Assembly: GCA_046290225.1 (NCBI GenBank)
Contig: JBKAGE010000070.1
Coordinates: 250,631-314,630, forward strand
DNA from: Bradymonadia bacterium
GTDB taxonomy: Bacteria; Myxococcota_A; Bradymonadia; UBA7976; UBA1532
Direction: 5' to 3'
Length of the DNA: 64,000 nt
The translations under genes were made by a program, and so were the position numbers. Positions 1 through 64,000 of this stretch are shown here, in pieces (position 1 is the first letter of the stretch; every line of letters starts with the position of its first letter). The notes below the pieces were generated by a model, which saw only the letters and a program-made list of their open reading frames with translations, was not told the DNA's origin and did not search any database.

Positions 1-2037
1 GGCCACGAGATTCACCACCAGCCCCACAGCGATAGAGAGGAGCGCCATCATGGCGCCAAAGGCCAGCGCGCGACGCTTGCTGTGCATCGAGGCCAGCACC
101 CCGAAGGTGGTGAGGTTGGTGGCCGGGCCCGTGAGCAGAAATGCGATGGCCGCACCAGGAGACAGCCCCTTGTGCAGCAACACCGCCACCATGGGGGTCG
201 CCCCCGAGGCACACACATACCCAGGCAACCCCACGAGGGTCAGGAGCAATACATCAACCCCCCAGGGCAGGCTCGACAGCCAACTCGCCGACATGAGGGG
301 CTCCATGAGGGCCGCGACGCCGAGGCCCACCACCACCCAGGGCAGTGTGTGATCGACGAGATCACCCAGGCCATATCGCAAGCCTTCCACGAGGCGCGTC
401 GACAGGGGCTCGGTGCGCACCTCCACGGTCTCGATGTCTGCAGGGCGCTGCACTTCGAAGAACCGCCCGAGCACCAACGCCACCACCAACGCCACGATGG
501 CGGCGGCGACGAGACGGGCGATGGCCAGCTCCTCGCCGAGCAAGGTCAGAGACAACAAGAACGCGTCGATGCCCAGCTCGGGGGTTGCCACCAGAAACGC
601 CAGCGCCGCCGTGGCCGAAACACCACCGCGTATGAGGGTCTGGTACAGCGGCAACACACCACACGAACAGATCGGCAGAGGCAGTCCGAAGAGCATGCCC
701 TTCGAGGCGCGGCTGAACGCCGCGCCGCCACTGAGCCAGCCCGCCTGCCCAGCATTGAAGAAGGCATGCATCAGCCCTGCGGCGAGAAAGGCCAGCAGCA
801 GCACCGGCGCGCTCTCCAGAGCCAGAGTGTAGAAGGTCTCTCCTGCGCCGAGCTCTTCAGAAGCCTCGTGCATGTGGGGGTGTATATCGGTGAGCAAGTA
901 CACCGTCACCAGGCCCACCATGGCGCCAAAGGCCGACGCCGCCTTCACGAGCGGCGAGAGCGCCTCATGATGGTGATGATGCCCATGGTCGTGGTGGGCA
1001 TGATCGTGATGCTCGTGGTGATGGCCATGCTTGTGGTCATCGTGGTGATGCGCATCGTGATGATGCCCATGGCCGTGGTGGTCGTGCCCTTCACCCTCAT
1101 CGTGTGCATGGTCATGATGGTCATGATATTCGTGGCCATGGTCGTGGTGTTCGTGACCATGCTCGTGGTGTTCGTGACCATGCTCGTGATGTGCGTGACC
1201 ATGCTCGTGATGTGCGTGACCATGGCCGTGATGGTGATGATGATCGTGACCGCACCCTTCGACACCACACCCGCTGTTCGACAGACCTGGGATCTCCGGA
1301 TGGTTGTGATTGTGCACATCTCCCTCAGGCACCGATGACGGGGGATGATGAAACACCACGTGGAGCAGTGAGCCCGCCACCAGCGCCTGGAACAACGCCA
1401 GGGCGTCTACGGGGAGCATCTTCACACCTTGCTCGCCGAGCAGGAACCCCGCCACCGTGGCACCGCTGATGCCCAGCAGCACACTCACGAGCCCCTTTGT
1501 GCCCCAGGACTCGCGAATCGCCCACCAGATGGCCAGCCCCATGGGCAGCCGGTGCAGAATGACCCCGATGGCCAGCTGCAGGGCACCACCGCTGTGTGCA
1601 CCATGATGAGCGTGGTGATCGTGATGGTCATGATCGTGATGGCCATGCTCGAGGAGCCCAGGATCGGGCAGGTCGTGTCCCAAGCCGTGCAAATGCCCCT
1701 CGGCACCCACCAGCGCGGCGCCATCCATGAGGGCGTGCAATGCCAGACCTACGAGGGCCGCCGTGGCCACCGCTGGTGCCCCCCAGGTGGGGCGGCCACC
1801 ACGACGCGCGAGGCGCTCGAGCATGGTGGGCAGTGCCAGCCCCACGAGGGCGAGCACCACCGCCCCCCAGCCCACCTGCATCACCGCATGGGGCAACACA
1901 TCGAGCAGGATCAGACCCCCAAGGGCCACCAATACAAAGCCATCGAGGGCGGCGAAGACGCTGGGGCGCCGGCCGGTGAGCGCCACCATGGCGGGGCCAG
2001 CGATGAGGGCCAGCAAACTGGCGGCGAGCAGTGTCAT
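1..2037 (-). CDS. Metal transporter fusion: ZIP-like N-terminal membrane domain, His-rich linker, DUF318/ArsP-family permease (3' end runs off the window)
   Basis: Manual minus-strand translation from ATG at 2037 is open to position 1 (no stop, so absent from the ORF track). ZIP-like LHALMDG and ILHRLPMG motifs; ~95-aa His-rich tract; permease motifs GLPLPICSCGVLP, FLVATPELGID, GYVCASGATP, GAAIAFLLTGPATN. Confidence 0.85.
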   Translation of the reverse strand, partial: MTLLAASLLALIAGPAMVALTGRRPSVFAALDGFVLVALGGLILLDVLPHAVMQVGWGAVVLALVGLALPTMLERLARRGGRPTWGAPAVATAALVGLALHALMDGAALVGAEGHLHGLGHDLPDPGLLEHGHHDHDHHDHHAHHGAHSGGALQLAIGVILHRLPMGLAIWWAIRESWGTKGLVSVLLGISGATVAGFLLGEQGVKMLPVDALALFQALVAGSLLHVVFHHPPSSVPEGDVHNHNHPEIPGLSNSGCGVEGCGHDHHHHHGHGHAHHEHGHAHHEHGHEHHEHGHEHHDHGHEYHDHHDHAHDEGEGHDHHGHGHHHDAHHHDDHKHGHHHEHHDHAHHDHGHHHHHEALSPLVKAASAFGAMVGLVTVYLLTDIHPHMHEASEELGAGETFYTLALESAPVLLLAFLAAGLMHAFFNAGQAGWLSGGAAFSRASKGMLFGLPLPICSCGVLPLYQTLIRGGVSATAALAFLVATPELGIDAFLLSLTLLGEELAIARLVAAAIVALVVALVLGRFFEVQRPADIETVEVRTEPLSTRLVEGLRYGLGDLVDHTLPWVVVGLGVAALMEPLMSASWLSSLPWGVDVLLLTLVGLPGYVCASGATPMVAVLLHKGLSPGAAIAFLLTGPATNLTTFGVLASMHSKRRALAFGAMMALLSIAVGLVVNLVA
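964..1251 (-). repeat. His-rich low-complexity coding tract with 21-bp tandem units (HGH[A/E]HHE)
   Basis: Repeated ccatgctcgtg(a/g)tg units around 1140-1225; reads as poly-His/Gly/Asp/Glu in the permease frame. Confidence 0.85.
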
Positions 2038-48906: not shown

Positions 48907-50262
48907 ATGAGAGCAGCCATGAACACACCAACACATGTTCTGGGCCTCGCCTTGAGTCTCTGGGGTTCTACAGCCCTGGCAGGCCCGTCCTCGACATTTG
49001 AGCACACAGATGGATCGCCCATGCTGATGGTGCCCTTCGAGGACTGGGCCGTGAACAGACGGATCGTTTTCAAGGTACCACCGCTGGCTTTGGGGAGCTC
49101 TGGCGCGGTTGTCCTCGAGCCTCAAGGAGAAGGTCAGTATTCGGCCTCGTGTACTTTGCCCGCAGGCCAAGGTGGCCGGGTGATGATCCGCTGGTCCGAC
49201 TTGTCGACCCGGCCACAGTGTCAATCACTCTTCGAACCACAGAGCGATCGCAGCTGGTCGGTACAGACCACCGACGGCCGCGTACTCACCCGGCTGGTGC
49301 GCGCCCTGCCACCGACGATCCCCGGCGATGCATTGTCGATCCACCTGCGACCTGACGGTGGCATGTACTGGGGCGGTGTTGAGGGACGCCGCCCCCGTCT
49401 CACCGTCGATCTGCAGGTCTGTCAGTCTCAAGAGGCATGGGTCGGCCACGGCGCCGCCCTGGAGAAGATCACCCTGGGCGGTTGCCCGATGGAGGATCCC
49501 CGGCTGTTCCTGCCCACACAGGCGAGCCGCACCTTCTTTGCTGGTCGCCCGGGCCGCGCCATCGTCCGCGTCAAGGCGCCGCTGTTCCCTGGGGGCCAGT
49601 GGCGCTCAGTGACCATCAAGTACCTGCCTCCTGGCTCGGTCCCTGTGGCGCAGAGGGCTCCGGCTCCCTCAGTCAAAGGGCCTGACACCTCGGAGATCCT
49701 CGCCAAGACCGTGAAGCCCCTGGCCCCCAAGCTCGCGGAGCCCATCCCCCCGATGGCGCCTGCCATGGCCTACACCACTGGTCCATCTCCCGCGGCAGCG
49801 AAGGAAGTCTACTCTGGTGCCCTTCGCCTCGGGGTGAATTACAGCTACGTGCCCACCGGCGCGCGATATTCCAACCGGCAGATCGGTGGCGAGAACACCG
49901 TTCACGTGGAATCCGACGAGCACCACACCGAGCTTACGGCGGGGTACAGCTGGTTCATCGACGATCTCACCGAAGACGATCGCTTCGTGTGGGGCCGCGG
50001 CATCTACGCCGGGCTGACGTTGCTGTCGACCCAGGAAGGCAACAACCCCTTCCGCGCCGTGCACGCGGGGCTCGACATCCTCGCCCTGGATCCGGGCACG
50101 GCCCTCACCCTCGCCTTCTCGTTCCGCCAGATGTCCACGCTGCGCAATGGCGTCGAGGATGGCGATCCCCTGCCAGAAGGTGCCGACGCACCCACTCGCA
50201 ACCAGATGGGCGTGGGCATCTCCCTCATGCTCAACATCTCACCGCGCCTCATCAGCCGCTGA
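48907..50262 (+). CDS. Hypothetical secreted protein with C-terminal beta-strand-rich (OM-like) domain
   Basis: Signal peptide ending ALA; Pro-rich linker; amphipathic beta-strands at the C-terminus. Start at 48907 or 48919. Confidence 0.6.
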   Translation: MRAAMNTPTHVLGLALSLWGSTALAGPSSTFEHTDGSPMLMVPFEDWAVNRRIVFKVPPLALGSSGAVVLEPQGEGQYSASCTLPAGQGGRVMIRWSDLSTRPQCQSLFEPQSDRSWSVQTTDGRVLTRLVRALPPTIPGDALSIHLRPDGGMYWGGVEGRRPRLTVDLQVCQSQEAWVGHGAALEKITLGGCPMEDPRLFLPTQASRTFFAGRPGRAIVRVKAPLFPGGQWRSVTIKYLPPGSVPVAQRAPAPSVKGPDTSEILAKTVKPLAPKLAEPIPPMAPAMAYTTGPSPAAAKEVYSGALRLGVNYSYVPTGARYSNRQIGGENTVHVESDEHHTELTAGYSWFIDDLTEDDRFVWGRGIYAGLTLLSTQEGNNPFRAVHAGLDILALDPGTALTLAFSFRQMSTLRNGVEDGDPLPEGADAPTRNQMGVGISLMLNISPRLISR

Positions 50263-52194
50263 GATCCGATCCACCTTGAGCGCCCTGAGCTGGTGCTTGA
50301 TCTCGTCGAGCCGCCCCTGAGCCACCCTCCACTTTTCTGCCAGAGCATTCAGTTGGGCCTCAGCCTCTTCTCTGAGACGAGCGAGGTGATGAGGTCCATC
50401 TCTCAACCGACCCTCGAGGCGTGATCGCGCCACGGCTCTCGCCCGCTCGGTGAGCGTCTCGGTCACCGCTCGGCGATCGAAACGGACGCCCTTCTCTTGC
50501 GTCTTTCTCCACTGGAGCAGGCGGCCGATCAGCTGCTCACCGATGTTGCCGACACCTTCAAGGGTGTCGCGACGTACGTCGGCGGCGGTCTCCACACCTG
50601 CATGACGCAGACGTTTGAGGCGGCGCTGATTCAGGGCAGGCAATTTGAGCTGGTCGAGGCGGAATGTACTCAGATGTTGCTCGAGGGCCTGCTGCCGTGC
50701 GGCCATCACTTCATCTTTGATGGCCTGTGGATCGACCTGAATCCCTGCAAACCCACCCTCAAGATCGGCCAACAACCTCTGTCTGACTCCAAACCACTGC
50801 TGGAGGATGTCGACCCACTGTTTCTTGAAGATCTGGATGTGTTTGTGAAGTTGAAGCGCCTCGGTACTGAGCTCGGTGACAAGGCTTCGTCGCGCTCGGA
50901 CTGCCTGCCACCACCACCCCATCGCCACGAGGCCTCCGATCCCGCCGCCGAGGGCGAGGGCCAGGCGTTCAGTGCCCAGGCCGGCGGCCACCGCCCCTGC
51001 TGATACTCCAGCACAGAGAAGCGGACCAAGGAGGACGCCTCCACCCGTCGAGGCAGAGTGCGAGGGTGAATCGAACACCGGGCGCTCTGGCAGCGCTGGC
51101 AAAGCCTCGAGCTGGCGCTTGATGCTCGCCGCATCAAAGGGCGCCTGGGTCAGGCTGGGGGTGAACAGGTCGTGACCCAGCTGATCTTGGAGCGTGCACC
51201 ACGGACAACCCCAGGCGGCTTGAGGGTAGATGTGGCTCTCATCTCGACTGCAACTGCGCAGACCCTCCTGATGCAGGTGGCTGAGGTGCATCCTCCACTG
51301 TTGTGCTGACGGGCGCCCGGCGGACTGAGCCGCAAAGGCCTGCTCGAAGCACCTGGCGATCTCCTGGGGGACGAGGCTCAGTGCTGGTGTATGGGGTGGC
51401 CGATCTATCCCTCGCGCGCGCGCCTGAGATCCATAAGCGAAGAGCGCAGCCTTGATCGCCTCGGGGATAGACGGTGCCGTACCACCATCGAGAGCCACCC
51501 CTGCATGGGGATGGCGGCCGAGGAACAACACGTGAAAAATGAGCACCGCCAACCCGAAGGCATCTGTGTCGGGGGTCCTCAGCTGATCCACGAGTGACTT
51601 GCCCGAAAGCTCGGGAGGGAGAAACTCCGGCGCCCCCACTCGACACAGCCACCGCTGCCCCTCTGAGGTGATTTGAAAGCTGTCGGTGTCGATGAGTTTG
51701 AGCTTCACCTCACCGTCGTGGATGCCCACCAATACATTGTTCGGGTTTACGTCGCCGACGCAGTGGCCCCGTTGATGGAGCACGTCGAAGGCCTCTGCCA
51801 GGGCTGCGGAGACGTGCACCAGAGACGCCCAGGTGGCTTGGGGGAACTCCCTGCGTCGATCCTTCGGGCTGTAGAGCAGGTGTACCGGCTTGAGGCCCTC
51901 CACTCGGGGCATCAGCAAGCCCACCACCACACCACTCGGCGTGCTCAACACGTCGAGCGGCCAGGCGCTCACCGACATCAGCCCTGCATCTCGCAGGCTG
52001 AGCATGGCCCTGAGTTTGCCGATCTGCTCTTCCGCAGGCGGGCGGTGATAGAGCTTCGCCGCCAGGGTCTCGTGATCCCGCACGCTGTAAACGCTGCCCT
52101 CGCCCCCCTGGCCCAGGCGAGGGCCCAGGATCACCCGGGCGCCGGTGCTGCTGAGGAGCGGCCCTCGGTGGCCGGCAGGTGCCGGAGGACTCAT
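50239..52194 (-). CDS. TerY-P triad Ser/Thr kinase (YegI-like) with transmembrane segment and HhH-like C-terminus
   Basis: LGQGGEG, AAKLYH, AWP, VGDVNPNN, LIDTDSFQ, PPEL, GRHP, CPWC, GVETAADV...VGNIGE. Confidence 0.88.
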   Translation of the reverse strand: MSPPAPAGHRGPLLSSTGARVILGPRLGQGGEGSVYSVRDHETLAAKLYHRPPAEEQIGKLRAMLSLRDAGLMSVSAWPLDVLSTPSGVVVGLLMPRVEGLKPVHLLYSPKDRRREFPQATWASLVHVSAALAEAFDVLHQRGHCVGDVNPNNVLVGIHDGEVKLKLIDTDSFQITSEGQRWLCRVGAPEFLPPELSGKSLVDQLRTPDTDAFGLAVLIFHVLFLGRHPHAGVALDGGTAPSIPEAIKAALFAYGSQARARGIDRPPHTPALSLVPQEIARCFEQAFAAQSAGRPSAQQWRMHLSHLHQEGLRSCSRDESHIYPQAAWGCPWCTLQDQLGHDLFTPSLTQAPFDAASIKRQLEALPALPERPVFDSPSHSASTGGGVLLGPLLCAGVSAGAVAAGLGTERLALALGGGIGGLVAMGWWWQAVRARRSLVTELSTEALQLHKHIQIFKKQWVDILQQWFGVRQRLLADLEGGFAGIQVDPQAIKDEVMAARQQALEQHLSTFRLDQLKLPALNQRRLKRLRHAGVETAADVRRDTLEGVGNIGEQLIGRLLQWRKTQEKGVRFDRRAVTETLTERARAVARSRLEGRLRDGPHHLARLREEAEAQLNALAEKWRVAQGRLDEIKHQLRALKVDRISAADEAR

Positions 52195-52976
52195 GCCTGC
52201 GTGCCCCTTCGAGAGGCCAGGATCAGGCTCTTGTCGTCATCTGTGCGCTCGTTCACCGATGCAGAAGACAGGAAGCTCAACAGCGGCGCCTCGAGATCGC
52301 TCCCGGGCTCCGCTTGCTCCACAAAGCCGAACATCTGGTCGAAGAACGGGCCGTGGGCGGTGCGGGTTTCATAGTGCAGCACCAGATGCTGCAGGCCATC
52401 CGTGAAGGCGGCGAAGGCCTCGATGGGCCCCTGCACCAGGGCCCATTCCAGATGTAGCTCGGCATCTGAGGCCGTGGCGAACCAGGTCTCGTTGGCAAAC
52501 TCGCCGCGGGCTGGCCAGAACACCCAGTCGTACCCACCTCGGTGGCCCGCGCTGGGGATCACCATGGCCCCATCTCCGATCTGGAAGAACACCCCATATC
52601 GATCGTCGATGAGGGCCACCATCACCGTGCAGGCATACGCTCTGGGCACCGCACCTGCGGCATCGGCCCGTGACTGAATGGCGGTCTGAAACGCACTGAG
52701 CCAGTTCAGAGCCCAGGCGCGATCGAGCTCGGCAGCACCTCCGCCGCCCTCGACCAGCGCGCCCATGGCGTCGAGGGCCATGTCGCACGCGAGGCGGGCA
52801 CCCTCTGCACCCAGCTCCGCGGTGCCAGCACCGTCGGCCATGGCGCACAGGAGGCAGGGGCCATGAGGGCCCTCCACCACCCGCACTTCACAGGCGTCCT
52901 GGCAAGGGGTGTCATCTTTGAGGTGGGCCGTCCCCGGTGCCGATGCCGCGACATGTGTCCACGGGCTCGGGCTCAC
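52191..52976 (-). CDS. TerY-P triad PP2C phosphatase (YegK-like)
   Basis: GTAH....[34 protein letters not shown]. Confidence 0.92.
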
Positions 52977-53638
52977 ACCACCACCGTGGCCCAGCCGTCC
53001 GGGGCCGCCGGGTTTTCGAGGGCCAGCTGATCACCCGGGCGAGATCTCGACACTGAAGACAGAGAACTCGACAGCCAGGTGAACAGGCGTTCGAAGGCCA
53101 GCCCCTTGAGAGCCACCGGCTCTCGCACCGAGAGGCTCTTCAAGATCGACACGTCAGCGCCCTCTACCCCGACGGAGAAGAACATGAAGGCCCGCTCGGC
53201 CTCGCCGCGCTTCACCAGATCAGCAGCCTCGGCCCACTCGTCGGTGGGGGCGCCGTCGGTGATCAAGAAGACCCAGGGCCGGTAGTAGGCGATGCCGTTG
53301 GCCCGGTACGCCTCCTTGCGCAAGCGGAGCATCTCGAGGCCCACGGTGATCGCCTTGCCCATGGGGGTGCCCCCGGTGGTCACCAGAGGCGGCGGGTCGA
53401 AGTCATAGGCGGGCACGAAGTCGGCGATCTGCTGCACAGGGCCAAAGGTGACCATGGCCACCTCCACCCGCTTGGTGGCGAGGCGATCTGCCTGAAGAGA
53501 CTGTTGAAAGGTCTTGAGGCCGGCGTTGAGCTGCTCGATGGGCGCCCCCTCCATGGAGTGGGAGGTGTCGAGCAACAGCAGGCAGGGGCACCGGGGCTCC
53601 GGGTTCTCGGCAAATTCCGGATTGAGGATCAACGACAA
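52973..53638 (-). CDS. terY: TerY vWA domain protein (YegL-like)
   Basis: [46 protein letters not shown], FxWLSSS. Confidence 0.92.
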
Positions 53639-56751: not shown

Positions 56752-59160
56752 TTGATGAGCCTCGCGGCCCCTGCCCTCGTCACCTGCCTCGCCGACGCCG
56801 AGCAGCCCCTCGTCGAGGCCTTGCAGGGGATCACGCTCGTCGATGATCAGTCTCCGGAGGCCATCGCCCGGGCTCTGATCCATCTCACTGTCCTCTGCCG
56901 ATTTGCATCAGAAGGCACGACGCTCGCCACGTTGCCCTGCGCCCACCCCGCAGTCAGCGACATGTGCGACGCGCTGAGCATGCTCGCCGACCACGGCCCT
57001 GTGGCGTCTCAGCTCCGAGCCTTGAGACACACCCTGGCCCGACACCCCAAATGGCCCGCGCTCTCTTTCGAAGAGACCACCCACTTGCTGCCGCTGTGCA
57101 TCCGCAGACGCAATCCGGATCGAGCCTCGGCCCTCGGCCTCTTTACCACCCCAGCACCTGTGGCCCGAGCCATGATGTCCCTCGTAGCCGATCTCGGCGG
57201 CCTCGAGGGAGATCGGCCCTTTCTCGACCCTGCCTCGGGCACCGGCGCGTTCCCCATCGCCTTGCTCGAAGTCGCCCGCCAACGGCTGGGCTCGCGCTGG
57301 TCTACCCAGGCCCCCCATCTGGTGACCCGGATACATGGCCTCGAACTCGACTGGGTGATGTGGTTGGTGGGGCACGTCAGAGTGGCGATCTGGCTGCACA
57401 ACCACGGCGTCTCTGTCACGCCCACGCTCAGGCTTCCTCTCGAGCGCGGTGACGGCCTCACAGCCCCATGGCCTGAAGCCCTTCAGCTCGTGATGGGCAA
57501 CCCGCCCTACGCGCGTTTGCCCACGGGTGATCCTCGACGGCGCTGGATCACCCCCTTTGCCCAGGACAGCCGCGCCCAGGGTGCTGGAGGCCACGTCAAG
57601 AGCCTCTACAACCTTTATGTCGCGTTCTGGGGCCGCGCACACGCCGCAGTGACTCAGGGTCAGATCTGTCTCGTGACCCCTTCGGCCTGGCTCAACGGCC
57701 CTGGCTTCATCGGCATGCGGACGACCCTCTCCACCCCATCGGGCGACCTCTACGCCCTCGACCTGCGCGGTGATCAATTCGGAGGCCGGCGCACCGCCAA
57801 CCTGCTCAAAGTGCGTCCCCCCATCGCCATTGGCCTCAGCCATCGAAGAGAAGGTGCTCAGGCCACATCGGCTCGACTCTTCACGCTGCCGAGCGATCTC
57901 GACGCCCGACTACAATGGCTCGAAGGTCAGCCCTCGATCGGAGACATCCCCTGGCGATCGATGTCATCGCCCCTCGAAGCCCCCGTCCACGAGACTTCCC
58001 GTGGCTCAACTGAGCTGAAGGCGCCCCTGCTCACAGACATTTTCACGTGGCAGACCTCAGGGGTGCAATTCAAGCGTACCTGGCCTGTCGCTCACCGACC
58101 CTCGCTCCTGGTCGAGCGCTGGCGCATGTTGTTGAGCCACCCTGATCTCGGCGCGGCGCTGAAGTTGACCCGGGACCGCAACCCGACGCGCCCTGGCCGG
58201 CGAATCGTGGACCACGCCCGACTCGATGCACTTCACCCCGACATCGCCGAGCCGATACGCGCAGCCCTGGCGCAGGGTTGGGATCCTGAGGCGCCGCTCG
58301 GCAGCTTGAACCCCGATGCGCCCCACCCGCCCATCGTGCCTTATGGCTGGCGTGCCTTCGATGATCAGTGGTGTTTCCTCGACGATCGGCTCTGTGACTG
58401 CCCTCGTCGACCGCTCTGGAGACAGCACACCCCGCAGCAGCGCTACCTCGTCTCTCTGCTGACCAAACCCTTGGGCCGTGGACCCTCGGTCCTGCCTGGC
58501 ATGCTGGTCCCCGACATGGATCATTTCTGCAATCGAGGCGGCCGAGACATCGTGCCTCTCTGGCGAGATGATGGCGAAGGGGGCCAAGCCCCCAACATCG
58601 CCCCCGATCTTCTAAACACTCTATCGGCTACATGGAACAGGGCGGTCACCCCAGAGGATCTCTACAACTACACCCTGGCGCTGCTCGCTCACCCCAGTCA
58701 TGGCCGCGTGCTCGATGGCGCGCTTGTAGATCCGGGGCCGCGTGTGCCCCTCACTGCGGACGGCCCCCTTGCCGTCGAGGTGATACAACTGGGCCAGCAA
58801 CTCTTTGAAGTCTTTAAGAATTCACCTCCGGACCGAACGCTCTGCTGGTCCTCTCCACCTCAGCCTGAAGCCCCCCCGAGCTATGCCCTCAGAGACAACG
58901 CGATTTTTCTTTGTGGAGGTCGCTTCGAATTACCTCGGCCAGAAGTCGTCGAGCGTATCTCCGGCTTCGATCCGATCCGCAGCTGGGTGAAGCGGCGGGT
59001 TTCGAGAGGCAAAAAAGGGGTGATCCAATCCTCGGAAGAATTTTTTTTATCAGGCGATGAGATTTTTTTGGGGGTGGCCCGTCTGGTCTCTCGCTTATCG
59101 ACTTGGGCGTCGTTTTGGCCCGCTCAAGCAGCTTTTTTAGGAAAAGCGCTTAAGTTTTGA
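56752..59160 (+). CDS. N6-adenine DNA methyltransferase with type ISP (LlaBIII-like) C-terminal specificity domain; no nuclease or helicase seen
   Basis: FTTP, motif I DPASGTGAF, motif IV MGNPPY, NLYVAFW; C-terminal YGWRAFDDQW, PRRPLW, PLWRD, PRVPL, ISGFDPIRSW. Confidence 0.8.
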   Translation: MMSLAAPALVTCLADAEQPLVEALQGITLVDDQSPEAIARALIHLTVLCRFASEGTTLATLPCAHPAVSDMCDALSMLADHGPVASQLRALRHTLARHPKWPALSFEETTHLLPLCIRRRNPDRASALGLFTTPAPVARAMMSLVADLGGLEGDRPFLDPASGTGAFPIALLEVARQRLGSRWSTQAPHLVTRIHGLELDWVMWLVGHVRVAIWLHNHGVSVTPTLRLPLERGDGLTAPWPEALQLVMGNPPYARLPTGDPRRRWITPFAQDSRAQGAGGHVKSLYNLYVAFWGRAHAAVTQGQICLVTPSAWLNGPGFIGMRTTLSTPSGDLYALDLRGDQFGGRRTANLLKVRPPIAIGLSHRREGAQATSARLFTLPSDLDARLQWLEGQPSIGDIPWRSMSSPLEAPVHETSRGSTELKAPLLTDIFTWQTSGVQFKRTWPVAHRPSLLVERWRMLLSHPDLGAALKLTRDRNPTRPGRRIVDHARLDALHPDIAEPIRAALAQGWDPEAPLGSLNPDAPHPPIVPYGWRAFDDQWCFLDDRLCDCPRRPLWRQHTPQQRYLVSLLTKPLGRGPSVLPGMLVPDMDHFCNRGGRDIVPLWRDDGEGGQAPNIAPDLLNTLSATWNRAVTPEDLYNYTLALLAHPSHGRVLDGALVDPGPRVPLTADGPLAVEVIQLGQQLFEVFKNSPPDRTLCWSSPPQPEAPPSYALRDNAIFLCGGRFELPRPEVVERISGFDPIRSWVKRRVSRGKKGVIQSSEEFFLSGDEIFLGVARLVSRLSTWASFWPAQAAFLGKALKF

Positions 59161-59380
59161 GGGGTGGGTGTTTGAGCACCCATATCGCACCTTTCCATTC
59201 CGGAACATAAATATGTGCAAAGGCCCGCTTGAATGTTGCCGTTGCAAGGCCCGAAACGGGCTACACTGAACAAACGCTCACCTATGCACGGGTGCCGATT
59301 TGCGTAGAAATGAATGGGTGATAGTGGGACGGAAGTGGGCTACTTCCGGCAGGGTAATTCGGAATTTGAGGAGAACGGGC

Positions 59381-62300
59381 ATGGGCAAGATGCACGATCA
59401 GAAGATTCAGAAGAACCGCAAGTTCATCAAGGGTTTGGGCGTTGTGGCTGCACTGTCGGTCACAGCTCTGGTCAACGGCACGGACAACGTGCCCCTTGAG
59501 AAAAACTCTTCAACCCCTCAGCAGAATGCACCTCAGGTGGCCCGGCACGTCGTCGCCGCGCCCACTCTGCATCAGGGTTCGGCCGTCGTGGGCAACCACA
59601 CCAACGTGCCTGTTTCTTATGCGTCGCATTTGCAGGTCGATGCTGCAGCCCCTCATATCGCCATTACGGCACGGGGTGAAGTGGCCTTGAGCGAAATCAT
59701 CATTCGGACTGAAAAAAAGTTCGATGAAGATGCTGCGGCCCGCATCGCCGAGCGCTTTGGTGCCCAAGTGGTGGCCTCGCCCATGGCCCACTTCGCCCAT
59801 GTCAAGCTCCCCGAAGGTCAGGATCTCGCCGAGGCCATGACCTTCATCAACGCCCTCGACGGCGTGAGCCCCTCGTACAACGCCATCATGCGGGCCACTG
59901 GCCTCGGCTCCAGCTCCCGCGATGCCCAGATCCAAGCCCAGCTGGACTACGCCCCCATCGACCCCATCGCCGCCGCCGCGCTTGCCCCGCTGCAGTGGCA
60001 GATGGACGACAGCGCCTTCGGTCCTGGCAGCTGGCGCAGCACCCTCGCCCGCAGCTCCAGCGACGGCGTCACCGTGGCCATCCTCGACAGTGGGGTCAGC
60101 ATCGCCCCCTCCATCGAGTGCGCCGAGACGGTGGCCCCCTACGACTTCGTCAACGACGATGCTGATCCTTCTGATGATCACGGCCACGGCACCCACATCG
60201 CCACCCTCGTGGCCGCCAACCCCGAGTGTGGTGCGGTGTTCCAGGGCTACGCGCCCAACGTGACCCTCATGCCCGTGAAGGTGCTCGACAAGCAGCTCGC
60301 CGGCACCGAGTACGCCCTCGCCTCCGGCATCCTGCACGCTGTGGAGCACGGGGCCGACGTCATCAACATGAGCCTGTCGTTCAGCAAGGGCTACCAGCCT
60401 GGGGCCATGCTCCAGGCCGCCATTCAGAAGGCCGCCGATGCTGGCGTGGTCATGATCGGCTCCACCGGCAACGCCGGCATCGAGTTCGTGGGCTGGCCCG
60501 CCGCCTCCCCCCGGGTCATCGCCGTGGGCGCCTACGACGCTCAGGGCATGTCCGGTGAGGCTTCAGCCCGCACCGACTACTCCAACTTCGGCGCCGCCGT
60601 CGACGTGCTCGCCCCTGGTGGCACCCTCAAGGATCGCAACGAAGACGGCCTGCCCGACGCCATGCTCGGCGAGGCCCCCGTTCTCGGCTCTGACGGCGAG
60701 TTCCAGTTCTACCTCTCCGCCGGCACCTCACAGGCCGCCGCTGCGGTGACAGGTCTCGCCGCGCACCTCGTGGCTCAGGGTCACGATCCCGCGGTGGTGC
60801 CCTCTATCATCTCCGCCAGCGCCGAGCGCCCCGAGGGTCACGATCACGAGGCGGGCTCCGGCCTGCTGAGCCCCGGTCACGCCCTGGCCTTCGCTGATCG
60901 CGCCGACTTCCCCGGCAACGAGGCCCTCGAGGCCCGGTTCCAGGTGAACACCGTCATGGCCCTCACCGAGGGCGCCGAGGGTCCCGAGGCCACCGTGAAG
61001 GTGGCGGTGCGCATGAGTCACCCCGAGAAGGGCTCCATCACCCTCGCCGACGCCGGCATCGACTCCGCCGTGAAGGTGAGCGGTCACTGGTCCGGCGCCG
61101 TCTCCGGCACCGACAGCTGCGAGGTGCAGCCCGGTGAGTCCAGCTGCGAGTTCACCCTCGGCCTCGGCAAGACCGTCGCAGGCACCCTCGTGGGCTTCGA
61201 GGTCGACACCGTCACCGCCATGGGCGACGGCTCCGGCATCCTCGACGACTGGGGCCGCCCCGCCGAGAGCTTCTACGGGCTCAAGGGCGAGTGGGCCGAC
61301 ACCCTCGTGAACCACGACACGCACCACGTCTTCTTCGAGATGAACCAGGAGAACGCCGGAGAGACCTTCGGCGACGCCACCATCATCTCCAGCATGCTCT
61401 ACCGCCCCTTGGGTGCTTCCGGTGTGATGCCTCCTTCGGCCTGGTTGCTCGACGGCGGCTTCTTCAACGCGCTGCACGTGGGCGAGGGTGAAGCCACTGG
61501 CGACGGCCTCGGCTCCAGCAGCCACATCATGGGTCTCGGCTCCAGCAGCCTGGTGTTCCAGTTCAACTCCACCCTGCTCAGCCCCCAGCTCGCAGTGATC
61601 GAGGGCAACGGCCTCGGCTCAAGCAGCCTCGACTTCGAGTCCGTCATGGGCCTCGGCTCCAGCAGCCTGATCTTCACCGGCGCCAACACCATGGGGCACC
61701 TGCTCGCTTACGGGAACGGTCTCGGCTCCAGCAGCCTCGACTTCGAGTCCGTCATGGGCCTCGGCTCCAGCAGCAATGTCTTCAACCAGTACCTCGGCCT
61801 CTACACTGTGCAGGTGGCCTACGGGAACGGTCTCGGCTCCAGCAGCTACATCGGCGAGGACAACTTCCTCACCGGTGCGCACTCCAACGTGCTCGATCAG
61901 ATGGGTGGGCTCTCCAAGTTCTACGGCTCGGTGACCGCCATCGCCCAGGGCAACGGCCTCGGCTCCAGCAGCCTCGATCATGAAGAGGTCATGGGCCTCG
62001 GCTCCAGCAGCCTCTCCGCGATCATTTACAACCTCTACGCCGGCTTCAACAGCTTCAACGCTCAGGGCAACGGCCTCGGCTCCAGCAGCCACGACGCCGA
62101 CAACTTCATGGGTCTCGGCCCCAGCACGCACTTCGAGCGCCTGTTCCGTCGCGTGTTCGCCCCCCAGCAGGCCACCGGGAACGGCCTCGGCTCCAGCAGC
62201 CGCGACTTCGAGGCGGTCATGGGCCTCGGCTCCAGCAGCAACATCTTCAAGCTGATGATGCTCACCCTCTCGGTTCAGGCTGAGGGCAACGGCCTCGGCT

Positions 62301-63001
62301 CCAGCAGCATCAACTGGTCCCTGGTGAGCCCCGAGAGCGGCCCCGACATGACCCCGGGCCTGATCTTCATGGGCCTCGGCTCCAGCAGCAACGTCATGCA
62401 GGGCAACGGCCTCGGCTCCAGCAGCATCAACTGGTCCTTCTTTGCCGGCCTCGACAGCGGCAGCAACTTCGCTGACCTCTCCGCGGCCATGGGCCTCGGC
62501 TCCAGCAGCAACGTCATGCAGGGCAATGGCCTCGGCTCCAGCAGCCTCGACTTCTCGATGTACATGGGCCTCGGCTCCAGCAGCCACATCCTCAACTTCG
62601 CTGAGGTCATGGGCCTGGGCTCCAGCAGCAACAACATGCAGGGCAACGGCCTCGGCTCCAGCAGCATCGACTGGACCATCTTCGCCGGCCTCGGCAGCAG
62701 CAGCAACGTGGTGGATCTGTCTTCGGTGATGGGCCTGGGCTCCAGCAGCCACGACATGCAGGGCAACGGCCTCGGCTCCAGCAGCCTCGATTTCTCGGCC
62801 GTGATGGGTCTCGGCTCCAGCAGCCTCGACTTCTCCGCTGTGATGGGCCTGGGCTCCAGCAGCTACGGCATGCAGGGCAACGGTCTTGGCTCCAGCAGCC
62901 TCGATCACGAAGAGGTCATGGGCCTCGGCTCCAGCAGCCAGCCCATCGGCCACATCACCCGCTCCCTGTTCCCCGTGAACGTGCAGCAGTTCGGGCTCTG
63001 A
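59381..63001 (+). CDS. Secreted S8 (subtilisin-like) serine protease with prodomain, Ig-like domain and GLGSSS-repeat tail
   Basis: GAGGAG RBS before ATG 59381; N-terminal hydrophobic helix; catalytic VAILDSG (D), HGHGTHIA (H), STGN (oxyanion N), AGTSQAA (S). Confidence 0.92.
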   Translation: MGKMHDQKIQKNRKFIKGLGVVAALSVTALVNGTDNVPLEKNSSTPQQNAPQVARHVVAAPTLHQGSAVVGNHTNVPVSYASHLQVDAAAPHIAITARGEVALSEIIIRTEKKFDEDAAARIAERFGAQVVASPMAHFAHVKLPEGQDLAEAMTFINALDGVSPSYNAIMRATGLGSSSRDAQIQAQLDYAPIDPIAAAALAPLQWQMDDSAFGPGSWRSTLARSSSDGVTVAILDSGVSIAPSIECAETVAPYDFVNDDADPSDDHGHGTHIATLVAANPECGAVFQGYAPNVTLMPVKVLDKQLAGTEYALASGILHAVEHGADVINMSLSFSKGYQPGAMLQAAIQKAADAGVVMIGSTGNAGIEFVGWPAASPRVIAVGAYDAQGMSGEASARTDYSNFGAAVDVLAPGGTLKDRNEDGLPDAMLGEAPVLGSDGEFQFYLSAGTSQAAAAVTGLAAHLVAQGHDPAVVPSIISASAERPEGHDHEAGSGLLSPGHALAFADRADFPGNEALEARFQVNTVMALTEGAEGPEATVKVAVRMSHPEKGSITLADAGIDSAVKVSGHWSGAVSGTDSCEVQPGESSCEFTLGLGKTVAGTLVGFEVDTVTAMGDGSGILDDWGRPAESFYGLKGEWADTLVNHDTHHVFFEMNQENAGETFGDATIISSMLYRPLGASGVMPPSAWLLDGGFFNALHVGEGEATGDGLGSSSHIMGLGSSSLVFQFNSTLLSPQLAVIEGNGLGSSSLDFESVMGLGSSSLIFTGANTMGHLLAYGNGLGSSSLDFESVMGLGSSSNVFNQYLGLYTVQVAYGNGLGSSSYIGEDNFLTGAHSNVLDQMGGLSKFYGSVTAIAQGNGLGSSSLDHEEVMGLGSSSLSAIIYNLYAGFNSFNAQGNGLGSSSHDADNFMGLGPSTHFERLFRRVFAPQQATGNGLGSSSRDFEAVMGLGSSSNIFKLMMLTLSVQAEGNGLGSSSINWSLVSPESGPDMTPGLIFMGLGSSSNVMQGNGLGSSSINWSFFAGLDSGSNFADLSAAMGLGSSSNVMQGNGLGSSSLDFSMYMGLGSSSHILNFAEVMGLGSSSNNMQGNGLGSSSIDWTIFAGLGSSSNVVDLSSVMGLGSSSHDMQGNGLGSSSLDFSAVMGLGSSSLDFSAVMGLGSSSYGMQGNGLGSSSLDHEEVMGLGSSSQPIGHITRSLFPVNVQQFGL
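61505..62938 (+). repeat. In-frame array of 27 GGCCTCGGCTCCAGCAGC-type (GLGSSS) repeats with variable spacers
   Basis: 27 exact GLGSSS plus two variants (GLGPST, GLDSGS) counted in the translation; all spacers are multiples of 3 nt. Confidence 0.95.
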
Positions 63002-63049: not shown

Positions 63050-64000
63050 TCAGTACCGCGTCATCCCTTGAAAGTGGATCGCCTCGGAGACCAGCGACGA
63101 GGCATGTGACGGATCGTAGGGCCGCCAGCACGCCGCGGCGATCTGCAGACCTCGTGCGCCCTCTGCCAGCATGCCTTCGGCGATCAATTGCCGGCTGGAT
63201 CGCTCCAGCAGTCGACGCGCACATGGATGTGGATACACACCACATGCACTGAACACCCGCCACGCACGCTCCATGCACATCGACGCCCCAGCGAGATCGC
63301 CCATGCGCATGCTTGCCCCCGAGAGGAGCACCCACGCCACGGGGCGCCACCGGTAGGCCAGCCCGTCGAGGTGATGCTCCGTGAGCCGGCGAAGCAATGC
63401 GTGACAGCGCTCGACCTCTTCGGCATCACAGCGAATCATCGCCAAGTGCAGGAGCCCCGCTGACAGATGTTGGGTGCTGGTCTCCGACCATAGACCCACA
63501 GCGCCTTCGAGGCATGTGGCCGCCTCGTTGAGATCACCCTCCAGCCAGGCGATGTTGCCTTGGAGCAGTCGGGTCGACGCCACGCCGTTGATGGCGCCGA
63601 TCGCCTTGAAAGCATCCATGGCTTTGCGAGCGCCCTCTTCGCCCTCTGGAGACTCGCCCCAGATCCAGGCGGCGGCCTCACCATGCAGGCACCAGGCCCA
63701 CTCCACCGCCAGCTCGGGGATCCCTTCCACCATCTTGCGACCGGCAGTGAAGCGACCACGGGCCACCTCGTGCAGCCCTTGGGCCATGAGCGTCCAGCCT
63801 TCACCGCGCAGCGCCCGGGTGGCCCCAGCGAGATCTCCAATCCGCTCGTAGACTCGAGCGGCTTCGAGATAGGCCCGGTGTGCCGCCTCGATCTCCCCTT
63901 CGCTCAGCGCGCTCATGGCTTCCAGGCGGAACAGCGCAGCCCAGCCCTCGGGGTAGTCGTAGACTTCTACTACGCGGCGCAACCGCTGGCGGGCGTAGTG
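63050..64000 (-). CDS. C-terminal TPR-repeat region of a larger protein (5' end outside the window)
   Basis: Frame open to the window edge; A...Y..A...Y..IGD..G TPR-like repeats typical of kinase/STAND C-termini. Confidence 0.7.
   Translation of the reverse strand, partial: HYARQRLRRVVEVYDYPEGWAALFRLEAMSALSEGEIEAAHRAYLEAARVYERIGDLAGATRALRGEGWTLMAQGLHEVARGRFTAGRKMVEGIPELAVEWAWCLHGEAAAWIWGESPEGEEGARKAMDAFKAIGAINGVASTRLLQGNIAWLEGDLNEAATCLEGAVGLWSETSTQHLSAGLLHLAMIRCDAEEVERCHALLRRLTEHHLDGLAYRWRPVAWVLLSGASMRMGDLAGASMCMERAWRVFSACGVYPHPCARRLLERSSRQLIAEGMLAEGARGLQIAAACWRPYDPSHASSLVSEAIHFQGMTRY

What the first reader, a model, noticed from the sequence alone, without database searches (positions are those of the whole stretch)
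59870..59920. The tail motif also sits at the protease's own prodomain/catalytic junction
Seen: the only GLGSSS outside the tail is at 59900-59917 (SPSYNAIMRAT-GLGSSS-RDAQ), ~1.6 kb upstream of the array. It follows an I9-like prodomain (IIIRT...IAERFGAQV...HVKLP...V.PSYNAIMRA) and precedes the QW...VTVAILDSG start of the catalytic domain. GLGSSS-RD and a nearby upstream AT also recur in a tail unit (QATGNGLGSSSRDF). Established: subtilisins self-cleave at the end of the prodomain. Inference: GLGSSS marks this enzyme's recognition site, so each tail repeat is a programmed cut site or a competitive pseudo-substrate. This is the strongest internal evidence for the processing model.
Basis: partly seen in the sequence, partly recalled or inferred. 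Interest (0 to 1): 0.85.

Follow-up and report, generated by a model that had tools for sequence, protein, structure and literature searches.

The report
Protease carrying its own recognition tag
A secreted bacterial protease carries the same six-residue tag where it is expected to cut itself to become active and 28 more times in its tail; in many relatives the tag changes letter for letter at both places together, which suggests each enzyme reads a private tag of its own.

Summary
Observation confirmed. GLGSSS at 59900-59917 is the window's only copy outside the tail (27 copies plus one GLGPST) of an intact subtilisin-type (S8) protease, and directly follows the prodomain's last strand. Among 258 family members with a repeated tail hexamer (73 variants), 73 have a similar hexamer at the junction, and in 69 it equals the protein's own tail hexamer (shuffled mean 10.7, maximum 22). 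The other 185, including this protein's seven nearest relatives, have no junction copy, so maturation does not need it. Codons differ between copies, pointing to selection on the peptide. Motif positions co-vary preferentially with substrate-cleft residues (phylogeny not removed). Three large lipoproteins of this genome also carry two conserved GLGSSS. Best reading: an enzyme-specific sequence read in the active-site cleft on the prime side, cut before Gly (0.45); bound but uncut (0.2); structural repeat (0.15). Against simple cut sites: AlphaFold2 folds a typical relative's tail with ordered motif loops. No cleavage is shown. No paper on this family was found; the scan earlier noted other repeat-tailed S8 families on other DNA, none matching by sequence.

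The parts
59381..63001 (+). S8 protease gene, 1206 aa (ATG 7 nt after GAGGAG at 59368-59373)
59423..59479 (+). hydrophobic stretch (residues 15-33) after a basic N-terminus: signal peptide or membrane anchor (inferred)
   Evidence: highest 19-residue hydropathy window of the protein
59681..59899 (+). I9-like prodomain; last strand ends ..NAIMRAT, predicted P4-P1 = M-R-A-T
   Evidence: Pfam PF22148 weak hit; AF2 block pLDDT 83-93; family profile P4 hydrophobic, P2 G/A, P1 A/T/S
59900..59917 (+). junction copy of GLGSSS, predicted P1'-P6' and new N-terminus of the mature enzyme
59996..60892 (+). subtilisin catalytic domain; Asp236 (60086), His269 (60185), oxyanion Asn364 (60470), Ser450 (60728)
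   Evidence: invariant in 60 aligned relatives; Pfam; PDB hits
60935..61477 (+). folded C-terminal beta-rich region with no Pfam hit (Big_1-like lead in a relative, score under 0.9)
   Evidence: AF2 block pLDDT 73-95; ESM Atlas 0.83 for P0233
61505..62938 (+). tail array: 27 GLGSSS plus 1 GLGPST (62111), preceded mostly by Met or Asn, spacers of 3-36 residues
   Evidence: AF2 pLDDT under 50 here

Best explanation
GLGSSS is this enzyme's own extended recognition sequence, read mainly on the prime side of the active-site cleft, with the bond cut just before the Gly. Shown: intact S8 catalytic residues; motif starts directly after the prodomain's last strand; junction and tail hexamers change together in one clade; codons differ between copies. 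Inferred: after export the zymogen cuts RAT|GLGSSS, and then binds and cuts the same sequence in its own tail loops. That would shed the tail or release peptides that all begin with GLGSSS. Possibly it also cuts three surface lipoproteins of this genome about 130 residues past their lipidated Cys, releasing their large outer part. The junction copy is optional because the bound prodomain already presents that bond; where present it must match the enzyme's specificity, hence the co-variation.
For: Co-variation: 69 of 73, shuffled mean 10.7, maximum 22 in 10000; 16 of 20 independent pairs. In the batch found afterwards, 65 of 89 exact matches over 17 different hexamers; cross-protein control 1 of 8840. 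Register: the first Gly lies 7 residues after the Asn of the prodomain strand in 33 of 69 matching proteins (no such Asn found in 26) and 10-14 residues before the conserved Trp in 64 of 69. Where an insertion displaces the hexamer it keeps a G-[TSAN] in front. Tail copies in the first set have Gly at -2 in 96% and Thr/Ser at -1 in 82% of 650 copies, like the junction's Gly 86%, Ala 86%. Synonymous codons differ, including TCN/AGY serine switches. 7 of 15 top co-varying columns line the substrate cleft, against a control mean of 1.5, reached in 0 of 20000 draws; the strongest single pair is motif position 3 with Ala447, three residues before the catalytic Ser (z 6.3). The motif is portable: back-to-back 7-residue repeats, 2-27 copies, and a copy in a beta-hairpin in three proteins. 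Lipoproteins: a 19-residue invariant run over the motif among paralogues 53-70% identical. Precedent: LicP self-cleaves at NTAVNE and cuts NDVNPE (PMC6054071).
Against: No cleavage data. 185 of 258 relatives lack a junction copy. AF2 folds the tail of typical member P0074, four motif loops included, with block pLDDT 75-97 over residues 600-760. 225 of 258 hexamers end in Pro. Three of the co-varying cleft columns (Leu306, Ser361, Gly371) are non-prime sites by recalled subtilisin numbering and do not fit a prime-side register. The cleft set was drawn from recalled subsites after I had seen the first co-variation lists, and phylogeny was not removed. For the strongest pair only 3 well-supported independent pairs exist, p 0.5. 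Within the junction clade Ala447 is invariant while the motif still changes. No tagged non-protease protein was seen in other genomes.
Confidence: 0.45

Rival explanations
1. Built-in pseudo-substrate. The motif binds the enzyme's own cleft but is not cut, or only slowly. With the hydrophobic residue in S4 and the fifth residue in S1, the Pro that follows in most members would sit at P1' and block cleavage. The tail would then be a multi-headed self-inhibitor, or a linker between enzyme molecules.
For: Pro ends 225 of 258 hexamers. Motif positions 4-6 co-vary with Leu306, Thr309, Gly371 and Ser361 on the non-prime side. Motif loops are ordered in the P0074 model. Precedent: the LIPY/F pro-peptide of intracellular subtilisins, where a Pro displaces the bond from the catalytic Ser (PMC6220982).
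Against: The junction copy begins exactly after the predicted P1 of the zymogen, not five residues earlier. This protein has Ser, not Pro, at the last position. It does not readily explain the lipoprotein copies.
Confidence: 0.2
2. Structural or homotypic repeat. The motif is a turn that packs on identical copies of itself, so all copies in one protein, including the mature N-terminus, must match; the active site is not involved.
For: AF2 model of P0074, pTM 0.89, with motifs as ordered loops between strands. In most central members the first copy sits in a conserved strand-loop-strand. 995 of 1101 tail copies within two mismatches are identical to their protein's commonest hexamer.
Against: Copy number 2-27, spacing from 7 residues upward (median 26) and low-complexity spacers do not fit one fold. 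This protein's tail is predicted unfolded, though its alignment there is poor. It does not explain why the junction copy starts exactly at P1', nor the cleft co-variation.
Confidence: 0.15
3. Cleavage site in the PatA register: the hexamer is P5-P1' and the cut falls after GLGSS, as PatA cuts after G(L/V)E(A/P)S.
For: Same pattern Gly-hydrophobic-variable-small-Ser (PatA consensus from PMC10885120; family profile). Position 5 co-varies with Gly371, the S1 floor by recalled numbering.
Against: P1' would be Pro in 225 of 258 members; NisP, for one, does not cut before Pro (PMC10885120). Junction position fits the other register. PatA family score 57 against cut-off 421.
Confidence: 0.08
4. Tag for an outside reader, such as a glycosyltransferase, kinase, receptor or export factor.
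For: Ser/Thr-Pro-rich motif in loops of exported proteins; shared by three protease paralogues and three lipoproteins in this genome.
Against: Paralogues in one genome carry different hexamers: GLGSSS and GLGLAS in G000, GFASIP and GLLSSP in G044, GLVTAP and GLVTTP in G045. No conserved partner gene among 46 neighbouring frames scanned.
Confidence: 0.07
5. DNA-level homogenisation only: short repeats copied within the gene by conversion or slippage, tolerated in loops, with no function.
For: Many copies share codons: all five in L038, most in this tail. Some copying is needed to explain quick concerted switches between sister proteins.
Against: Synonymous differences with unchanged residues in C1, C82, L032, L033 and L150; the junction copy ends in TCC where the tail copies have AGC; the lipoprotein copies use other codons altogether. 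The junction copy sits at one fixed position in 69 proteins.
Confidence: 0.05

Closest known systems
Class II lanthipeptide protease LicP (S8; PDB 4ZOQ; PMC6054071)
   Same: Exported S8 zymogen whose self-cleavage site resembles the sequence it cuts in its substrate; hexapeptide recognition; structural match Z 34.6 to the P0074 model.
   Different: LicP's motif is on the P side and tolerant at P1'; its substrate is a separate lanthipeptide. Here the shared motif lies after the expected bond, is repeated inside the enzyme, and differs between sister enzymes.
Cyanobactin proteases PatA and PatG (S8; PMC10885120, PMC4663559)
   Same: Short recognition sequences repeated around variable cassettes; PatG reads the sequence after the cut (AYDG); PatA consensus G(L/V)E(A/P)S looks like the family hexamer.
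   Different: TIGR03895 score 57 against 421; cassettes are fused to the enzyme, not a separate precursor; signal-like N-terminus; no tailoring enzymes among neighbours scanned.
NisP (S8; PMC10885120)
   Same: Secreted pro-subtilase that autocleaves its own C-terminal part.
   Different: One C-terminal cut is reported; no repeated motif array.
Intracellular subtilisins with the LIPY/F pro-peptide (PMC6220982)
   Same: A Pro-containing self peptide occupying the cleft as a non-cleaved pseudo-substrate is the model for the main rival.
   Different: Those have a short N-terminal extension in place of signal and I9 prodomain, one fixed motif, no C-terminal array.
Thermitase/Ak.1-type S8 proteases and Tk-SP (PDB 1DBI, 1THM, 3AFG, 9RK9)
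   Same: Best sequence and fold matches of prodomain and catalytic domain.
   Different: Broad-specificity enzymes. This family has a nearly invariant Glu310 (256 of 258), Phe334 (252) and Gln451 (251) around the cleft and the repeat-bearing C-terminal region.

Membership tests
Peptidase family S8 (subtilisin) | Asp-His-Ser triad in that order, with oxyanion Asn | tested here: met
   D236, H269, N364, S450 invariant in 60 aligned sequences; PF00082 123.9 bits against 21.8
Peptidase family S8 (subtilisin) | subtilisin fold with I9-like prodomain whose last strand ends at the maturation bond | tested here: met
   AF2 model and Foldseek hits to pro-subtilisins 3AFG, 3WHI; Z 43 to 3WHI for P0074 over model residues 69-456. 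The cut position itself is inferred.
Peptidase family S8 (subtilisin) | proteolytic activity and self-maturation | not testable with these tools
   needs protein work
PatA/PatG cyanobactin proteases | TIGR03895 at curated cut-off | tested here: not met
   57 bits against 421.05
PatA/PatG cyanobactin proteases | cluster with separate precursor E, second protease and tailoring enzymes | tested here: inconclusive
   none among 46 of 116 candidate neighbouring frames from 11 loci or the four window neighbours scanned; the window's contig ends 1 kb downstream
LanP lanthipeptide proteases (LicP type) | self-cleavage site resembles the substrate's recognition sequence | tested here: inconclusive
   junction and tail hexamers match in 69 of 73, but neither is shown to be cut
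LanP lanthipeptide proteases (LicP type) | located in a lanthipeptide gene cluster | tested here: inconclusive
   no such gene among the neighbours scanned; not all frames were scanned
Mycosins (type VII secretion) | TIGR03921 at curated cut-off | tested here: not met
   143.3 bits against 278.75
Intracellular subtilisins (LIPY/F pro-peptide) | no export signal, short pro-peptide in place of I9 prodomain | tested here: not met
   hydrophobic N-terminal stretch and folded I9-like prodomain
Catalogued repeat or solenoid families | Pfam repeat model over the tail | tested here: not met
   only PF00082 and PF22148 hit the whole protein at E up to 0.1

The most novel reading that the evidence does not exclude
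A family of several hundred secreted subtilases in Myxococcota, each with a private, fast-changing six-residue address read on the prime side. The address is written into the enzyme's own maturation site, into loop arrays of its tail and, in this genome, into surface lipoproteins that it sheds. This would be a natural set of near-orthogonal protease-tag pairs, a possible self versus non-self code on the cell surface. Because every cut would both consume and create a Gly-hydrophobic N-terminus, PatG-like transpeptidation (cyclising or cross-linking tail units) is not excluded.
Probability: 0.25. Interest if true: 0.88.

Novelty: new variant of a known kind. Interest (0 to 1): 0.72.

Why it matters
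Subtilisin specificity is classically set by P4-P1, and substrates of environmental S8 proteases are almost never predictable. Here each gene appears to spell out its own recognition sequence, in at least 73 variants that switch between sister proteins. That makes specificity directly testable with short peptides and swap experiments, gives named candidate substrates (three surface lipoproteins), and, if the pairs are orthogonal, offers a natural library of tag-specific proteases. If instead the loops are uncut, it is an undescribed multi-headed self-inhibitory or self-assembling module. Either way a large myxobacterial protease family with this architecture was not found in the papers searched.

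Tried and rejected
Complex prediction of the mature enzyme with lipoprotein residues 126-200: no verdict, score 0.00, controls not folded; not counted either way. Search for tagged non-protease proteins in other genomes: GLGASS, GVGPSPL, GLLSSP, GLASSPL and GFASIPL patterns in five genomes each gave clusters only in S8-family genes (eight loci read, most single hits not read). Tandem GLGSSS in 28 genomes of the family: true double GLGSSS only in G000. Tandem G[IV]xTSP in 401 genomes: 9 genomes with a match, control matches in 14; of five loci read, one was a family tail and four looked like non-coding or opposite frames. One fixed-spacing junction pattern in 301 genomes: none. Lipoprotein N-terminal region: no clear homologue in 40 relatives or in the protein database at 876-2788 residues; ESM Atlas leads under 0.9 only. 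Tree test of one origin for this junction copy and the large junction clade: not rejected, p-AU 0.144, although the two groups are separate at 98 and 99 SH-aLRT. Independent-pair test of motif Leu/Met with Glu/Gln at the Ala447 column: 12 of 14 against 3 of 156 raw, 3 supported pairs, p 0.5. No structural match was seen for the repeat-bearing domain; the whole-model searches were filled by subtilisin hits, so it is barely tested. Prodomain-only PDB sequence search: nothing. Promoter/terminator scan: nothing above shuffles. Sequencing runs: no RNA holder listed; one DNA run with share 0.12, whose contig at depth 2 spans 59880-60030 with no difference listed inside the motif, too thin to count. 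A GNGLGLASV match in a histidine kinase (G000 C79) is the ATP-binding G2 box (name recalled) and was rejected as chance. Paper searches without a paper on this family; subscription journals are mostly outside this library, and no supplements were read.

Full report
The sequence. The finding lies in a 1206-residue ORF, 59381-63001 (+), with a ribosome-binding site 7 nt before the ATG. It has a hydrophobic N-terminal stretch, an I9-like prodomain, a subtilisin domain with all catalytic residues, a folded beta-rich region and a 498-residue tail. GLGSSS occurs once at 59900-59917 and 27 times in the tail, plus one GLGPST, and nowhere else in the window in six frames. Chance would give 0.00025 copies in the first 700 residues. 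In the AlphaFold2 model the prodomain's last strand runs to Arg171 at high confidence and the motif follows at low confidence. Subtilisins cut themselves at the end of that strand (established knowledge), so the motif would be P1'-P6' and the new N-terminus. That register is inferred, not shown.

The family. Three searches gave 318 proteins in which I could place the catalytic Asp, this one included. Where sources name them they are mostly Myxococcota, some Kofleriaceae. In 258 there is a hexamer repeated at least twice after the catalytic domain, an N-terminal part of at least 90 residues and a locatable catalytic Ser; the other 60 were left out of the counts. The hexamer has the form Gly-hydrophobic-x-Ser/Thr-Ser-Pro/Ser, in 73 variants, and is uniform within a protein: 995 of 1101 similar copies are identical to their protein's commonest one.

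The co-variation test. In the first 170 usable proteins only 4 had their own hexamer in the N-terminal part, all at the junction and each different; the cross-protein control was 1 of 8840. A search seeded with those and their relatives pulled out the clade: 65 of 89 usable new proteins have an exact copy 34-43 residues before the catalytic Asp, in 17 hexamers. That search was seeded with junction-bearing proteins, so the share of such proteins in my set is not a share of the family. Overall 73 of 258 have a family-like junction hexamer and 69 equal the protein's own tail; shuffling gives 10.7, at most 22 in 10000. In 16 of 20 tree-independent pairs with different tails both junctions follow. 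The remaining 185 have none, among them the seven nearest relatives of this protein, two of them paralogues in the same genome. This protein's copy most likely arose apart from the large clade, but one origin was not rejected (p-AU 0.144).

Peptide or DNA. Copies often share codons, so duplication or conversion helps keep them alike. But unchanged residues sit on different codons in several genes, including TCN/AGY serine switches; the junction copy here ends in TCC where the tail has AGC. The constraint is therefore on the peptide (inference).

What reads it. Paralogues in one genome can differ in hexamer, which points to the enzyme itself rather than a genome-wide modifier. Across 258 proteins, 7 of the 15 catalytic-domain columns that co-vary best with motif positions 2-6 line the substrate cleft; 49 control columns from other domains give 1.5 on average, and 0 of 20000 draws reach 7. 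Three cautions: the cleft set comes from recalled subtilisin BPN' subsites and was fixed after I had seen the lists; phylogeny is not removed; and the strongest pair has only three supported independent contrasts (p 0.5). The columns also disagree on register: Ala447 is prime side, while Leu306, Ser361 and Gly371 are non-prime.

Against a plain array of cut sites. For P0074, a typical member with four copies, AlphaFold2 folds the whole tail (pTM 0.89; block pLDDT 75-97 over residues 600-760) with the motifs as ordered loops between strands. I could not see coordinates. Most hexamers end in Pro (225 of 258), which fits a bound but uncut peptide as in the LIPY/F pro-peptide (PMC6220982, passages seen). 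On the other hand copy number runs from 2 to 27, spacing from 7 residues, some arrays are back-to-back low-complexity repeats, and three proteins carry a copy inside a beta-hairpin. That is how a portable tag behaves, not a fixed fold.

Possible targets in trans. Genome-wide, GLGSSS occurs 38 times in coding-like frames against 0.77 expected: 28 here, 4 in two paralogous proteases and 6 in three large proteins with a lipoprotein-like N-terminus and Big_5 and MopE-type domains, on contigs C41 and C54. Each has two copies 14 residues apart, about 130-150 residues past the Cys. The first lies in a 19-residue invariant run, the longest in 307 columns where the next is 6, on codons unlike the protease's. 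The three are paralogues, so they count as one event. No such tagged protein was found in other genomes, so this rests on one genome.

Mechanism and rivals. Most likely (0.45) the hexamer is the enzyme's prime-side recognition sequence, cut before Gly, at the junction, in tail loops and perhaps in the lipoproteins. Adding the uncut pseudo-substrate (0.2) and the PatA-like register (0.08), binding in the enzyme's own cleft totals about 0.73. A structural repeat (0.15), an outside reader (0.07) and neutral copying (0.05) make up the rest. These odds are my judgement.

Known systems. It works like LicP, whose self-cleavage site resembles its substrate site (PMC6054071, passages seen), and like PatA and PatG with repeated recognition sequences (PMC10885120 and PMC4663559, passages seen). 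It is an S8 member but falls far below the PatA/PatG and mycosin cut-offs, and no peptide-tailoring genes were seen among 46 of 116 candidate neighbouring frames. Six searches found no paper on this family (listings only); supplements were not read and could hold family lists. Earlier notes of this scan describe other S8 families with repeated short motifs in tail or junction; none matched by sequence and I did not test them.

Verdict. Interest 0.72; new variant of a known kind.

Noticed in passing
G000 C41:31298-36079 (-), C54:33834-37832 (+), C54:37836-43838 (+); loci L021, L022: Three large paralogous lipoprotein-like proteins (Big_5, MopE-type repeats, one with RCC1 repeats), each with two GLGSSS copies in the most conserved stretch of the N-terminal region; no clear homologue found elsewhere.
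   Followed up: partly
G000 C1:39870-42518 (-), C82:82173-85088 (+), C67:4797-7667 (-); loci L024-L026: Three paralogous S8 proteases with 2-3 tail motifs (GLGSSS, GLGSS[ST], GLGLAS) and no junction copy.
   Followed up: yes
window 60308-60310, 60380-60382, 60731-60733 (Glu310, Phe334, Gln451): Nearly invariant family residues around the cleft (256, 252 and 251 of 258) where broad-specificity subtilisins have other residues (recalled); they suggest a narrowed, specialised site.
   Followed up: partly
window 63050-64000 (-): Convergent TPR-repeat gene cut off by the contig end. Kinase, TPR or STAND-type signalling genes also flank four of 11 related loci (L023, L031, L032, L048); uncontrolled, and such genes are common in these genomes.
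   Followed up: partly
window 56752-59160 (+): 802-aa type ISP restriction-modification-like protein (methylase plus Type_ISP_C domain) directly upstream; shorter than typical full-length ISP enzymes (recalled).
   Followed up: no
window 50239-53638 (-): Three-gene run that reads like vWA/TerY, PP2C-like phosphatase and kinase; judged from sequence only, not scanned.
   Followed up: no
window 973-1651: Short-period tandem repeats that read as a His-rich stretch on the minus strand.
   Followed up: no
L023:1805-4000, L006, L008, L048: Distant family members with different tail motifs (GLMASG, GLWGSG, GFMASG, GIASGT), suggesting the principle extends beyond the hexamer class counted here.
   Followed up: no
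L032:5515-11034: Tandem paralogues with slightly different tags (mostly GLVTAP versus GLVTTP): a natural pair for a cross-specificity test.
   Followed up: partly
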